Shown piece after piece: positions 20,317-23,308 of a stretch of 64,000 nucleotides of DNA. The translations under genes and the position numbers were made by a program. The number at the start of each line of letters is the position of its first letter. Position 1 is the stretch's first letter. The DNA is taken from assembly GCA_000002445.1 (NCBI GenBank), contig CM000208.1, positions 3,200,001 to 3,264,000 on the forward strand, read 5' to 3'. Below the pieces are notes generated by a model, which saw nothing but the letters and a program-made list of their open reading frames with translations, was not told the DNA's origin and searched no databases. The DNA is from Trypanosoma brucei (lineage: Eukaryota).

Positions 20317-21144
20317 TTACGCAGCCTCCTTTAGACACTTAGGGTCCCAACCAACGGCAAACCAGGGATGGGAAATGATACCCTCAAGGGTGATACGGTT
20401 TTGGGGGTCCACAGTCAACATGCGCTTGACTAAATCCCTTACAGCCTCAGACACCTGCCGCAGCATAGCGTACTCACCGCGCTTGACTTTCTCAAGAAGG
20501 GATTTCTGGTTACGATCCTCAAAGGGGAGTTTTCCAGCGAGCATGACGTAAAGAATGACACCACAACTCCAAATATCAGCGGCGAATGCGTTGTGGTCGC
20601 TTCCACTAAGTGCCTCGGGAGCAATATAGTTCGGGGTCCCCATAGCCCTGCTGGAAGGGAGGTCACTGTCGCCACTGCCATTGCTGCAAAAGCCAAAATC
20701 ACTAATTTTCAGCACTCCGACAGCATCAAGCAGAAGATTTTCGGGCTTCAAGTCACGGTGAGCGAACCCCTTGCCGTGGCAGTGGTGAACGCCGGCGATG
20801 AGCTGTTGGAAGTAGCGTCGTGCAGTCGGTTCGTCAAAGCGTTTCGCAGCAACGATTTTGTCAAACAGCTCACCGCCCGATACGAACTCTAACACCAGGC
20901 AGTAGTGAGTTGGCGTTTCCTTGAAATCGTGAAATGCAATTATATTTTCATGCTTAAATACGCGCATGGCCTCTACTTCCCGCATCAATTGGCCTTCCAT
21001 TTCTTCCTTTCGCAGTTTAGCCTTGTCTATGATCTTAACTGCCCACCTCCGTCGTTGCTCATCCGTTGCCAAGCGGACGGTGGAGAAGGTACCAGATCCA
21101 AGTTTTTGGGAAACCGTGTACGGTGGAAGAACAAAATTTTCCAT
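20317..21144 (-). CDS. Serine/threonine protein kinase, CAMK/AMPK-related (kinase domain only, 275 aa), paralog 1
   Basis: ATG start. The kinase subdomains are present: GSGTFSTV (Gly loop), AVKIIDK (VAIK), [12 protein letters not shown] (catalytic loop), [12 protein letters not shown] (APE), and [15 protein letters not shown]. Confidence 0.85.
   Translation of the reverse strand: [275 protein letters not shown]
20693..20895 (-). repeat. 203-bp near-identical segment (copy A) shared by the two kinase paralogs; candidate gene-conversion tract
   Basis: Compared base by base with 22854..23056: 201 of 203 nt are identical. The flanking coding sequence is only about 60-70% identical. Confidence 0.8.
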
Positions 21145-22486
21145 ATTACCTCTTTATAATGTCTATATCTTATTCTTGTTCGGCTTTGACCATGCGAAAC
21201 AAGTCGAATTGCAGCCTGCAAGTGCGAGCTAGGAGAAAGGAAAGAAAGGACGAAGAAGAAAGAGTACCCAAATGTTTTTCTAAATTACCACCACACTCCC
21301 TCACCGACCAAACTTCACTATCAGCCGTTGCACGTGGAAGACGCGAGCGAGACGCTATTGCTAATCACATTCCGAAGCGCAACATTAGGAAAAAGGAAAC
21401 GTAAAAAAAAAAAGGAGAAATAGGAAGAGACAAAAGAAAGTGAGAAAACGGAAAAAAAAGAAGCGGAAGGTGCTCGTGGCACGCACCGAACAAAGTTTTC
21501 CGCAGAGAGACCTTTTTGAGAGCAGGAAGTTAATGCTTCGTCCCTAAGTATAGGTTTCAATACGCACCGTATTCGATGACATCATTTACTCCTTCTTCCC
21601 TTCGTCTCCCCTTCTCTGAAAACGGAACTAGAAAGGTAAAGAGGAAAAACGATTAAGACCCCTTATTGAACGGTTGCCCCGTAGAATTGTCGCCACAGGC
21701 GGTGGGGGAGGGTAGAAACATACCGTACAATCAAACAAGAAAGGGCAAAACCACTTGCAAAAAAAAAAAGACATAACTAATCACTTAAGTTAACGATCGC
21801 TGAGATGTCCGAAGGGAAGTGAAACGAGCGGACGGATATAACAACACCAACTAGCCACCAGGAATCAGCAGTTCGGGACTCTCTTTACCCCCCCCCCTTC
21901 CTCTTTTAACGAGCAAACGCACACACATGTATAAATACATACATACACATGTATATATACATGTTGCGCCTTCACTGGAGGTTCCCAGTCCCGCAAAGAA
22001 CAAAAAAACAAGAAATATTGCGCACGCTACTCTTATTAACCACTCCTTTCTCTTCCCCAGAACACATATACTCGACTTCTTTCCTTCTCCGCTCGCCACT
22101 TAGCTCCACAGTTTTCGTTCTTCCTTCCTCAGAACATTTTTCATATTCTCCCAGTAGACACCTGCCACACCGTCCCCTGGGGTATCGCAATGGCAAAAGG
22201 GTGGCACAACGAAGATGATAGAAAGTGGAAACTTGGCTCTGGCAACAGAGAAACATATAACAAAGATAACAATGATAGAGAGTCGAGTCCCTGCACCTCT
22301 TCAAAACTCATAAACTAATCCCGCAAACTTTTTCGGTGAAATCAACCGGTTTCACCCCTTTCAGCCCACAAACAACCGTATGCACAAACACAACAAATAA
22401 CAAATATATATATATTTATTTATTTAAAAGCAGTAATACACACAACACAGAATAACTCCCAGAATAATCGGGAAGAAAGAGTACCA

Positions 22487-23308
22487 TCACGCCGACTCGT
22501 TCAGACACTTAGGGTCCCAATCAACGACAAACCAGGGATGGGAAATGATAGCCTCAAGGGTGATACGCTTCTTAGGATTTACGACAAGCATGCGCGCGAT
22601 TAAGTCCTTTGCTGCGTCTGACACGTGCCGGACCATGCTGTACTCGCCACGCTCGATCCGTGCAAGAAGATGTCTCATGCTCCGATCCTCAAAAGGAAGT
22701 CGTCCAGCGAGCATGACGTAAAGAATGACACCGCAACTCCAAATGTCAGCACAGAGACCGTTGTAGCCGCGCTCCATGAGGACCTCAGGTGCCACATAGT
22801 TGGGAGTGCCACACACTGTTTTTAGCAGGATGTCCTGCTGCCGGTTTCCGAGACCAAAATCACTAATTTTCAGCACTCCGACAGCATCAAGCAGAAGATT
22901 TTCGGGCTTCAAGTCACGGTGAGCGAACCCCTTGCCGTGGCAGTGGTGAACGCCAGCGATGAGCTGTTGGAAGTAGCGTCGTGCAGTCGGTTCGTCAAAG
23001 CGTTTCGCAGCAACGATTTTGTCAAACAGCTCCCCGCCCGATACGAACTCTAACACAAGATAGTAATGGTTCGCTGATTCGAGCACGTCGTGAAGATCAA
23101 TAACATTCCTATGTTTAATGGATCGCATTATAGCAACTTCACGAAGCATTTGATCCTCCATCTTTTCCTTCCGAAGTCGAGTTTTGTCTATGATCTTAAC
23201 GGCAAATTTCTTACCACCTTCATCTGTTGCCAACCTTACCGTTGAGAAGTTTCCGAACCCGAGTTTTTCCCCCAAACAATACGGTCCCAGCCGCACAGGA
23301 GGTGTCAT
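22487..23308 (-). CDS. Serine/threonine protein kinase, CAMK/AMPK-related (kinase domain only, ~273 aa), paralog 2
   Basis: Same motif set as paralog 1 ([39 protein letters not shown]). The track ORF starts with GTG at 23347; the first ATG is at 23308 ([10 protein letters not shown]). A 203-nt block is near-identical to paralog 1. Confidence 0.85.
   Translation of the reverse strand: [273 protein letters not shown]
22854..23056 (-). repeat. 203-bp near-identical segment (copy B) shared by the two kinase paralogs
   Basis: See copy A at 20693..20895. The two mismatches are gccGgcg vs gccAgcg and ctcAccg vs ctcCccg. Confidence 0.8.

What the first reader, a model, noticed from the sequence alone, without database searches (positions are those of the whole stretch)
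20317..23308. Tandem CAMK/AMPK-like kinase paralogs share a 203-bp tract with only 2 mismatches, embedded in otherwise diverged genes
The two kinase genes are about 2.2 kb apart and head to tail. They encode the same motif set, but flanking coding DNA is only about 60-70% identical. The blocks 20693..20895 and 22854..23056 are 201/203 identical and code for [70 protein letters not shown], which includes the catalytic loop. This mosaic pattern is the footprint of recent gene conversion, or else of unusually strong nucleotide-level constraint. Both proteins are bare kinase domains of about 275 aa with no regulatory tails, which is unusual for AMPK/CAMK relatives.
Basis: seen in the sequence. Interest (0 to 1): 0.55.

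Follow-up and report, generated by a model that had tools for sequence, protein, structure and literature searches.

The report
Gene conversion between tandem trypanosome kinases
Two neighbouring kinase genes of Trypanosoma brucei (Tb927.10.13480 and its neighbour, taken to be Tb927.10.13490) keep copying their catalytic-core DNA onto each other while three short gene-specific stretches stay different; this is a clear but ordinary case of gene conversion in a parasite already known for it.

Summary
Window 20693-20895 and 22854-23056 are 201/203 identical, inside two minus-strand CAMKL kinase genes (K1 20317-21144; K2 22487-23308) that are otherwise about 50-75% identical.

The window is T. b. 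brucei TREU927 chromosome 10. Published RNAi primers identify K1 as Tb927.10.13480. K2 is taken to be Tb927.10.13490 because it is adjacent.

Gene conversion is supported and nucleotide-level constraint is refuted:
- Paralog dS in the tract is 0.09, against 1.35 (near saturation) elsewhere.
- The same tract has dS about 1.3 between T. brucei and T. vivax orthologs.
- T. vivax and, at protein level, T. congolense each carry their own species-specific version of the tract, shared by both paralogs.
- The activation segment instead groups K1 with K1 across species (99.5% bootstrap).
- UTRs are unalignable, so the duplication is old and homogenisation is recurrent.

K1-specific derived residues sit in three islands: β4/β4-β5 loop, activation segment and αG. 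K1 lacks the T-loop threonine.

In T. b. gambiense DAL972 the tract runs on over K1's activation segment (355/357 nt K2-like), so tract length varies within the species.

Tandem-array gene conversion in T. brucei is already documented. This pair was catalogued but not analysed. It is a new member of a known kind, of modest interest.

The parts
20317..21144 (-). K1 = Tb927.10.13480, a 275-aa CAMKL-type kinase consisting of the kinase domain only. It is the derived paralog and lacks the T-loop threonine.
   Evidence: ORF. Pfam Pkinase E = 6e-73 over residues 9-262. The sequence is identical to XP_827832.1 of T. b. brucei TREU927. Published RNAi primers for Tb927.10.13480 map to 20627-20646(+) and 21007-21026(-).
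22487..23308 (-). K2, a 273-aa CAMKL-type kinase with the ancestral-type activation loop ([15 protein letters not shown]). It is taken to be Tb927.10.13490 because it is adjacent to K1.
   Evidence: ORF. Pfam Pkinase E = 3e-74. Identical to P0006, which is found in TREU927, T. b. gambiense and T. equiperdum. Outgroup trypanosomatids carry the K2 state at 8 of the 9 fixed K1/K2-diagnostic columns.
20693..20895 (-). K1 copy of the main conversion tract. It covers the end of β5, the hinge, αD, αE, the catalytic loop HRDLKPEN, β7-β8 and DFG (K1 residues V84-G151).
   Evidence: 201/203 identical to 22854-23056. Paralog dS 0.087, against 1.35 outside the tract and 1.31 between species. Secondary structure from the AlphaFold model, mean pLDDT 87.9.
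22854..23056 (-). K2 copy of the main conversion tract.
   Evidence: blastn finds only these two copies in the window.
20581..20691 (-). K1-specific activation segment (F152-A188): activation loop, P+1 loop and the αEF-αF loop. It is an island that resists homogenisation. The T-loop Thr is replaced ([14 protein letters not shown]).
   Evidence: 51% nt identity to K2 with a 3-codon indel. It groups with T. vivax K1 at 99.5% bootstrap. The diagnostic residues F152, M168, I174 and F187 are shared with T. congolense and T. vivax K1. Residues 153-167 have pLDDT below 50.
22751..22852 (-). K2 activation segment (L153-C186). This is the sequence that replaces K1's own activation segment in the K1 gene of T. 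b. gambiense DAL972.
   Evidence: In T. b. gambiense, K1 is 101/102 identical to K2 over this segment, while K1-type sequence is kept on both sides.
20533..20580 (-). Second homogenised patch, K1 copy (αF, [16 protein letters not shown]). The K2 copy is at 22703-22750.
   Evidence: 46/48 nt identical in T. brucei and 47/48 in T. vivax. Between-species orthologs are 38-41/48.
20335..20397 (-). Third homogenised patch, K1 copy (R250-C270, [21 protein letters not shown]). The K2 copy is at 22505-22567.
   Evidence: 60/63 nt identical, with no synonymous and three nonsynonymous differences. It falls in a run of 16 identical same-amino-acid codons.
20627..21026 (-). Amplicon of the published RNAi construct pTL189 for Tb927.10.13480. 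It contains the whole shared tract.
   Evidence: Primer matches. The kinome table gives identical read-outs for Tb927.10.13480 and Tb927.10.13490.

Best explanation
The 203-nt near-identical block is a tract of non-allelic (interlocus) gene conversion between two old tandem paralogs. They are the CAMKL kinases Tb927.10.13480 (K1) and its neighbour K2, taken to be Tb927.10.13490, on T. b. brucei TREU927 chromosome 10.

Shown:
- The duplication predates the split of T. brucei, T. congolense and T. vivax.
- The catalytic core (β5 to DFG), helix αF and, to varying extents, other parts have been homogenised separately in each lineage.
- Three short K1-specific islands stay orthologous across species and carry derived residues: the β4/β4-β5 loop, the activation segment through the αEF-αF loop, and αG.

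Inferred mechanism:
- A break or gap in one copy is repaired by homologous recombination using the neighbouring copy 2.2 kb away on the same or the sister chromatid. Heteroduplex is corrected in short patches.
- Tracts stop where homology collapses: the activation segment is about 50% identical and has an indel immediately after DFG.
- Conversions that overwrite the K1-specific islands may also be removed by selection.
- Each homogenisation restores perfect homology and so favours the next one, which keeps the same tract converting.

K1 looks like a functionally diverged copy. It has an intact catalytic core but has lost the T-loop threonine and has an altered substrate-side surface. K2 keeps the ancestral form.

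In T. b. gambiense DAL972 a longer K2-to-K1 tract has replaced K1's own activation segment.
For: - Observation and significance.
- Synonymous divergence: paralog dS in the tract is 0.087 in T. brucei and 0.045 in T. vivax. It is 1.35 or saturated outside the tract in T. brucei, and 1.31-1.33 for the same tract between T. brucei and T. vivax orthologs. Identical-codon fractions are 65/69 and 64/66 within species against 34/63 between species.
- Concerted columns: six tract columns have K1 = K2 within each of T. brucei, T. congolense and T. vivax while the species differ (D/E, D/N, H/Y, G/S, V/T/N, V/E/M). No tract column is K1/K2-diagnostic.
- Segment incongruence: in the activation segment T. 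brucei K1 groups with T. vivax K1 (99.5% bootstrap). Everywhere else the T. vivax paralogs pair with each other (97.5-100%).
- Old duplication: the UTR and intergenic DNA of the two 2.2-kb units shows no similarity.
- Internal patch: divergent sequence lies on both sides of the tract, which requires conversion rather than a single crossover.
- Variation within the species: in T. b. gambiense DAL972 K1 is K2-like from the tract through MLAG (355/357 nt) and K1-type on both sides, in a contiguous locus without Ns from 8x capillary sequencing (PMC2854126). The two TREU927 in-tract mismatches are strain-specific. One site shows the same C/T variant in K1 of TREU927 and K2 of T. equiperdum.
- Same behaviour elsewhere in the genus: T. 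grayi copies a and c are 207/207 identical in the tract but 88-91% in the flanks. T. melophagium a and b are identical from the tract to the stop codon.
- Background: T. brucei recombination depends on substrate length and homology and uses short-patch mismatch repair (PMC1904282). Gene conversion in T. brucei tandem arrays is documented, with 76 events in 21 arrays (PMC1855330).
Against: - No conversion event was observed directly.
- The direction of transfer within the 203-nt tract cannot be told.
- T. congolense was compared at protein level only, because no DNA could be fetched.
- Whether tract limits are set by selection or by the homology barrier is not resolved.
- GC3 is not raised in the tract, so there is no sign of GC-biased conversion.
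- The grouping of K1 activation segments could be inflated by long branches, although the shared derived residues argue against that.
- The T. b. gambiense allele rests on one assembly.
Confidence: 0.9

Rival explanations
1. Nucleotide-level purifying selection (an RNA structure, a regulatory element in the mRNA or strict codon choice) keeps the 203 nt identical in both genes without any exchange.
For: The tract encodes the most conserved part of the kinase (catalytic loop, DFG), and its amino-acid sequence is 100% identical between the paralogs.
Against: Synonymous sites in the same tract are close to saturation between T. brucei and T. vivax (dS 1.31-1.33; only 34/63 same-amino-acid codons identical), while they are nearly identical between paralogs within each species. 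Amino-acid replacements in the tract are shared by both paralogs in a species-specific way.
Confidence: 0.02
2. Assembly or consensus artefact: reads from the two copies were merged, so that one copy's sequence was written into both.
For: The short-read T. equiperdum OVI assembly mishandles this locus. It has a K1-N/K2-C chimera on a 2169-bp contig, which is about the repeat period, and a K1 fragment that starts just after the tract.
Against: - The tract with divergent flanks is present in TREU927, in T. equiperdum GCA_003543875.1 (a 4.1-Mb contig) and in T. b. gambiense DAL972 (capillary reads).
- The few in-tract differences vary by strain and by copy.
- The same mosaic is seen in T. vivax and, at protein level, in T. 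congolense.
- A 203-nt repeat is shorter than a capillary read.
Confidence: 0.02
3. A young duplication whose flanks diverged very quickly under positive selection, leaving the tract as the only part that still shows the true young age.
For: dN is high in the flanks: 0.37 N-terminal and 0.56 in the activation segment.
Against: - Synonymous sites in the flanks are saturated, which selection on the protein cannot produce.
- UTRs are unalignable.
- K1-type and K2-type genes with the same diagnostic residues exist in T. congolense and T. vivax, so the duplication predates those species.
Confidence: 0.02
4. Unequal crossing-over between misaligned copies, with gain and loss of copies, rather than conversion, produced the mosaic.
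For: Copy number varies across the genus: 1 in T. cruzi marinkellei and Leishmania, 2 in T. theileri and the African species, 3 in T. grayi and T. melophagium. The T. equiperdum OVI K1-N/K2-C chimera is what a crossover within the tract would give.
Against: A single crossover gives one breakpoint and changes copy number. Here the array has two copies in all three salivarian species with DNA, and each homogenised patch is bounded on both sides by divergent sequence. Three separate patches in T. brucei would need many reciprocal events.
Confidence: 0.04

Closest known systems
Concerted evolution and gene conversion in T. brucei tandem gene arrays (Jackson 2007, BMC Evol Biol 7:54, PMC1855330)
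   Same: Same organism and same process: tandem duplicates in a polycistronic unit, mosaic similarity, paralogs grouping by species, and divergent copies that keep orthology where the repeat structure is disrupted. This pair is in that paper's supplementary catalogue as array 109a ('protein kinase', chr 10, 2 copies, 828 bp, 3268212-3271203). That 2992-nt span equals the finding's span.
   Different: I found array 109a only in that catalogue file, and not in the main text or the other held supplementary files. So I found no conversion analysis of it in the text held here. In this pair the unit of persistence is not a whole gene copy but three short islands inside the coding sequence, with completely unrelated UTRs.
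Duplicated genes in other organisms in which selection keeps diverged segments despite ongoing conversion (for example human RHD/RHCE and the red/green opsins; Innan and Teshima models). Cited from my own knowledge, not checked here.
   Same: Near-identical tracts alternate with sharply diverged segments that hold the functionally distinguishing residues.
   Different: Here the preserved segment is a kinase activation segment, and a natural allele (T. b. gambiense DAL972) has lost it. No population data are available to test for selection.
CAMKL kinases: plant CIPK/SnRK3, yeast Snf1, AMPK alpha, MARK
   Same: These are the best matches among solved structures: CIPK23 E = 5e-80, CIPK24, Snf1, SIK3, MARK and AMPK α2. 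K2 keeps the T-loop threonine context [15 protein letters not shown], like CIPK23's [15 protein letters not shown]. A published kinome table classes both genes as CAMK/CAMKL.
   Different: Both proteins end a few residues after the kinase domain, at 273 and 275 aa. They have no NAF/FISL motif, autoinhibitory domain, UBA or KA1 domain or subunit-binding tail. K1 also lacks the T-loop threonine.

Membership tests
Interlocus gene conversion / concerted evolution of tandem paralogs | Within the tract, paralogs in one species are more alike than orthologs between species. | tested here: met
   Tract nt identity is 98% for T. brucei K1/K2 and 98% for T. vivax K1/K2, against 81-83% for every T. brucei-T. 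vivax comparison. The tract tree groups sequences by species.
Interlocus gene conversion / concerted evolution of tandem paralogs | Homogenisation extends to synonymous sites and is confined to a segment. | tested here: met
   dS is 0.087 in the tract and 1.35 or saturated outside it. Fisher p = 2e-7 for synonymous differences inside versus outside.
Interlocus gene conversion / concerted evolution of tandem paralogs | The fragment is longer than expected from the distribution of differences (a GENECONV-type criterion). | tested here: met
   The run is 203 nt with 2 mismatches, against a maximum of 74 nt in 20,000 permutations. On synonymous codons alone it is 67 against a maximum of 50. GENECONV itself was not run.
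Interlocus gene conversion / concerted evolution of tandem paralogs | Different segments of the same genes give conflicting phylogenies. | tested here: met
   In the activation segment K1 of T. brucei groups with K1 of T. vivax at 99.5%. In the other segments the T. vivax paralogs pair at 97.5-100%.
Interlocus gene conversion / concerted evolution of tandem paralogs | The converted stretch is an internal patch with two boundaries and no change in copy number, which distinguishes it from a single unequal crossover. | tested here: met
   Divergent CDS lies on both sides of each patch. The array has two copies in T. brucei, T. b. gambiense, T. equiperdum and T. vivax.
Interlocus gene conversion / concerted evolution of tandem paralogs | Direct evidence of an event, that is, tract differences between closely related strains. 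| tested here: inconclusive
   T. b. gambiense DAL972 K1 carries a 357-nt K2-type tract where TREU927 and T. equiperdum keep K1 sequence. This rests on one assembly, and no reads were available.
CAMKL group of protein kinases | A eukaryotic protein kinase domain with intact catalytic motifs, closest to Snf1/AMPK/MARK/CIPK. | tested here: met
   Pfam Pkinase E about 1e-73. VAIK-type Lys, [8 protein letters not shown], DFG and APE are present in both proteins. The top PDB hits are CIPK23/24, Snf1, SIK3, MARK and AMPK.
CAMKL group of protein kinases | An activation-loop threonine that is phosphorylated by an upstream kinase. | tested here: inconclusive
   The residue is present in K2 (LLKTVCG) and absent from K1 in T. 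brucei (R), T. congolense (K) and T. vivax (A). Phosphorylation itself cannot be tested with these tools.
AMPK alpha subunit / CIPK (SnRK3) | A C-terminal regulatory region: AID and β/γ-binding domain for AMPK, or NAF/FISL motif and phosphatase-interaction domain for CIPK. | tested here: not met
   The proteins end at 275 and 273 aa and the kinase domain reaches residue about 262. Pfam finds no further domain. The roughly 447-aa Bodo and Diplonema homologs have tails, but those tails have no Pfam match.

The most novel reading that the evidence does not exclude
The most novel reading not excluded has two parts.

First, K1 (Tb927.10.13480) may be a salivarian-specific, functionally diverged CAMKL kinase that no longer depends on T-loop phosphorylation. 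Its identity would reside in three small islands (β4-β5, the activation segment and αG) that selection has defended against continuous overwriting by K2 since before T. brucei, T. congolense and T. vivax diverged.

Second, T. b. gambiense may have really lost that identity through one longer conversion tract. That would be a natural activation-segment swap distinguishing the human-infective subspecies from T. b. brucei.
Probability: 0.25. Interest if true: 0.5.

Novelty: new member of a known kind. Interest (0 to 1): 0.3.

Why it matters
Practical consequences:
- The 203-nt identical tract means that RNAi, probes, primers and about 69 residues' worth of peptides cannot tell the two kinases apart.
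- The published kinome-screen construct for Tb927.10.13480 (amplicon 20627-21026) contains the entire tract. The table reports the same values for both genes. Existing loss-of-fitness data therefore probably describe a double knock-down.
- The unique UTRs and the three islands are the places to target for paralog-specific work.

Biological point:
- The pair is a compact example of conversion and functional divergence coexisting inside one coding sequence.
- It also points to a possible difference in kinase repertoire between T. b. brucei and T. b. gambiense.
- The underlying process is well known in trypanosomes, so none of this changes current understanding.

Tried and rejected
- T. congolense DNA could not be fetched: the look-up of encoding contigs has no record for P0003. 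That species was therefore used at protein level only.
- Searching the paper library for the protein accessions and for Tb927.10.13480/13490 returned nothing. A guess at gene IDs in the range Tb927.10.136xx-141xx was wrong. The ID came from the kinome table and was verified with the primers.
- From Jackson's 2007 coordinates I expected the major-intrinsic-protein pair (array 109b) at about window 60186-62896. The ORFs there are unrelated long proteins. Those coordinates do not transfer to this window, and I make no claim about that array.
- A GC-biased conversion signature was looked for and not found: GC3 is 0.55-0.58 in the tract and 0.43-0.68 in the other segments.
- Bootstrap values for some species clades are low (47-72%) after re-rooting. 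I rely only on the high-support contrasts.
- The T. equiperdum OVI 272-aa protein P0123 at first looked like a second instance of the T. b. gambiense allele. It is a different chimera (K1 N-terminus plus K2 from the tract to the stop) on a contig of about one repeat period, so I do not count it as support.
- TRF finds no tandem repeats in the window.
- The + strand ORF 20593-20892 (99 aa) that overlaps the tract was treated as spurious. I ran no test on it. The high synonymous divergence of this stretch between species gives no sign of a second constraint there.
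Full report
**What is there**

The window carries two head-to-tail kinase genes on the minus strand. K1 is at 20317-21144 (275 aa). K2 is at 22487-23308 (273 aa from the ATG; the ORF continues to a GTG at 23347). Both are single Pfam protein-kinase domains that fill almost the whole protein.

K1 is identical to XP_827832.1 of Trypanosoma brucei brucei TREU927, on the 4.05-Mb chromosome 10. The neighbours are a sestrin-like PA26 protein, RPL10a and an FtsH-like protease. All ORFs of at least 250 aa in the window lie on the minus strand, as expected for one polycistronic unit.

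The RNAi primers published for Tb927.10.13480 map to 20627-20646 and 21007-21026, so K1 is Tb927.10.13480. K2 is taken to be Tb927.10.13490 because it is adjacent. Both are listed as CAMK/CAMKL in the kinome screen table.

- Window 20693-20895 and 22854-23056 differ at 2 of 203 positions.
- Over the 816 aligned CDS positions the genes are 74% identical, with 209 differences.
- In 20,000 permutations of those differences the longest run with at most two mismatches was 74 nt, against 203 observed.
- Conservation of the protein does not explain this. Among codons that encode the same amino acid, 4 of 69 differ inside the tract and 43 of 110 outside (Fisher p = 2e-7).
- Two more short patches are homogenised. 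One is αF ([16 protein letters not shown]), 46/48 nt. The other is 21 codons before the C-terminus, 60/63 nt, with three nonsynonymous and no synonymous differences.
- Outside the CDS the two 2.2-kb units share no detectable similarity.

**Conversion versus constraint**

I fetched the syntenic locus from the following species. The T. congolense pair was available as protein only.

| Species | Locus | Short kinase copies |
|---|---|---|
| T. equiperdum | L002 | 2 |
| T. b. gambiense DAL972 | L003 | 2 |
| T. vivax | L004 | 2 |
| T. grayi | L005 | 3, plus one 468-aa kinase |
| T. melophagium | L006 | 3 |
| T. cruzi marinkellei | L007 | 1 |
| Leishmania | L008 | 1 |
| T. theileri | L010 | 2 |

The decisive numbers are these:

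| Comparison, tract only | dS | Identical same-amino-acid codons |
|---|---|---|
| T. brucei K1 vs K2 | 0.087 | 65/69 |
| T. vivax K1 vs K2 | 0.045 | 64/66 |
| T. brucei vs T. vivax orthologs | 1.31-1.33 | 34/63 |

Outside the tract, T. brucei K1 versus K2 has dS 1.35 or is saturated. Synonymous sites in the tract are therefore free to change. They are simply kept the same in the two copies of each genome.

At protein level, six tract columns have the same residue in both paralogs of a species but differ between T. brucei, T. congolense and T. vivax. No tract column separates K1 from K2.

The activation segment behaves in the opposite way. It is about 50% identical between paralogs in both T. 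brucei and T. vivax. In a neighbour-joining tree T. brucei K1 joins T. vivax K1 with 99.5% bootstrap, whereas in the other segments the T. vivax paralogs pair with each other (97.5-100%).

This is the standard signature of an old duplication undergoing recurrent interlocus gene conversion.

**Not an artefact, and still active**

- The mosaic is present in three independent T. brucei-group assemblies.
- The two TREU927 mismatches are strain-specific. One is a singleton in TREU927 K2. The other is a C/T site where C occurs in K1 of TREU927 and in K2 of T. equiperdum.
- In T. b. gambiense DAL972, K1 is K1-type up to the tract, then K2-type through the activation segment and αF (355/357 nt), then K1-type again.
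- That locus is contiguous, has no Ns and is 97.7% identical to the window overall. The genome came from eight-fold capillary sequencing assembled with Phrap (PMC2854126).
- Tract length therefore appears to vary within the species, and that event ran from K2 to K1.
- The T. equiperdum OVI entry P0123 is a different chimera on a 2169-bp contig, about one repeat period. It is best read as an assembly loop, or possibly a crossover product.

**Anatomy of what resists conversion**

Columns where K1 of all three salivarian species share no residue with any K2 cluster in three places. On an AlphaFold model of K1 (mean pLDDT 87.9) they map as follows:

1. β4 and the β4-β5 loop (about residues 70-80).
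2. The activation loop, P+1 loop and the loop before αF (152-188). Residues 153-167 are predicted disordered.
3. Helix αG (E218-K221).

At 8 of the 9 fixed diagnostic columns the outgroup trypanosomatids carry the K2 residue, so K1 is the derived copy.

K2 keeps the CAMKL T-loop threonine ([11 protein letters not shown]; compare CIPK23 [11 protein letters not shown]). K1 has R, K or A at that position in T. brucei, T. congolense and T. vivax respectively. Catalytic motifs are intact in both.

From general knowledge of kinase structure, the activation segment, P+1 loop and αG form the substrate and regulator-binding face. I therefore infer, but have not shown, that K1 differs from K2 in regulation and substrate choice while sharing an interchangeable catalytic core.

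**Mechanism**

Shown: there are patchy, two-sided tracts; they are lineage-specific; and the 3' boundary falls at the DFG codon in T. brucei and T. vivax (DNA) and in T. congolense (protein level).

Inferred: repair by homologous recombination uses the neighbouring copy as template. T. brucei recombination depends strictly on substrate length, is impeded by mismatches and uses short-patch mismatch repair (PMC1904282). That fits tracts that stop where identity falls to about 50% with an indel, and it fits the patchwork near the C-terminus.

Selection against loss of the K1 islands is a second explanation for the boundaries. It does not exclude the first, and the data here cannot separate the two.

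No GC3 excess marks the tract.

**Relation to what is known**

Gene conversion and concerted evolution in T. brucei tandem arrays were described in detail by Jackson (PMC1855330: 76 events in 21 arrays). This pair appears in that paper's supplementary catalogue as array 109a. I found it nowhere else in the main text or the other held supplementary files.

The same locus behaves similarly across the genus. T. grayi copies a and c are 207/207 identical in the tract with flanks at 88-91%. T. melophagium a and b are identical from the tract to the stop codon.

The kinases are CAMKL-type; the closest solved structures are CIPK23/24, Snf1 and AMPK. They lack every regulatory tail that defines AMPK α or CIPK. 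Short forms are the rule at this locus in trypanosomatids, while Bodo and Diplonema relatives have tails of about 180 aa with no Pfam match.

**Practical consequence**

The published RNAi amplicon for Tb927.10.13480 (20627-21026) includes the full shared tract. The screen table gives identical values for 13480 and 13490. Current phenotype data probably do not separate the two genes.

**Verdict**

It extends to recurrent, lineage-wide concerted evolution with three conserved K1-specific islands, plus a longer tract in T. b. gambiense. It is a new, well-resolved member of a known kind and of modest interest.

Noticed in passing
L003 7182-8000 (T. b. gambiense DAL972, FN554973.1): The T. b. gambiense ortholog of K1 is only 91% identical in protein to TREU927 K1, because its activation segment and αF are K2-type (355/357 nt). 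This is an unusually large difference between the subspecies for a housekeeping-type gene.
   Followed up: partly
Protein P0123 (T. equiperdum OVI, 2169-bp contig) and P0122 (108-aa K1 fragment on a 17-kb contig): P0123 is a K1 N-terminus joined to K2 from the tract to the stop, on a contig about one repeat period long. P0122 starts just after the tract. The identical tract appears to break or loop a short-read assembly. Alternatively a three-copy array with a crossover chimera exists in that strain.
   Followed up: partly
L005 3351-9573 (T. grayi); L006 1544-5810 (T. melophagium): Array size varies. T. grayi has three short kinases plus an adjacent 468-aa kinase with a long tail. T. melophagium has three copies, two of them 100% identical at nucleotide level. 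The N-terminal peptides (MV..ARLG.Y versus M..NVG.Y) look orthologous across species, so the duplication may predate much of the genus.
   Followed up: partly
window 16715-19399 (-): An 894-aa ORF with a PA26/sestrin domain (Pfam E = 5e-33) lies directly downstream of K1. It is syntenic in all trypanosomatid loci fetched in which a downstream gene was in range and annotated.
   Followed up: no
window 55454-55624 and 55901-56071: A 171-nt direct repeat at 70% identity, spaced 447 nt apart, lies inside the 732-aa ORF 53908-56106. It is probably an internal protein repeat.
   Followed up: no
window 1-64000: All 20 ORFs of at least 250 aa are on the minus strand, consistent with one polycistronic transcription unit. 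TRF finds no tandem repeats at score 80 or above.
   Followed up: no
window 20335-20397 vs 22505-22567: Near the C-terminus, 21 codons have three nonsynonymous and no synonymous differences between the paralogs. One of them (K1 G255) is polymorphic: TREU927 has G, while T. equiperdum and T. b. gambiense have the K2 residue A. This fits short-patch conversion, or selection on single residues.
   Followed up: partly
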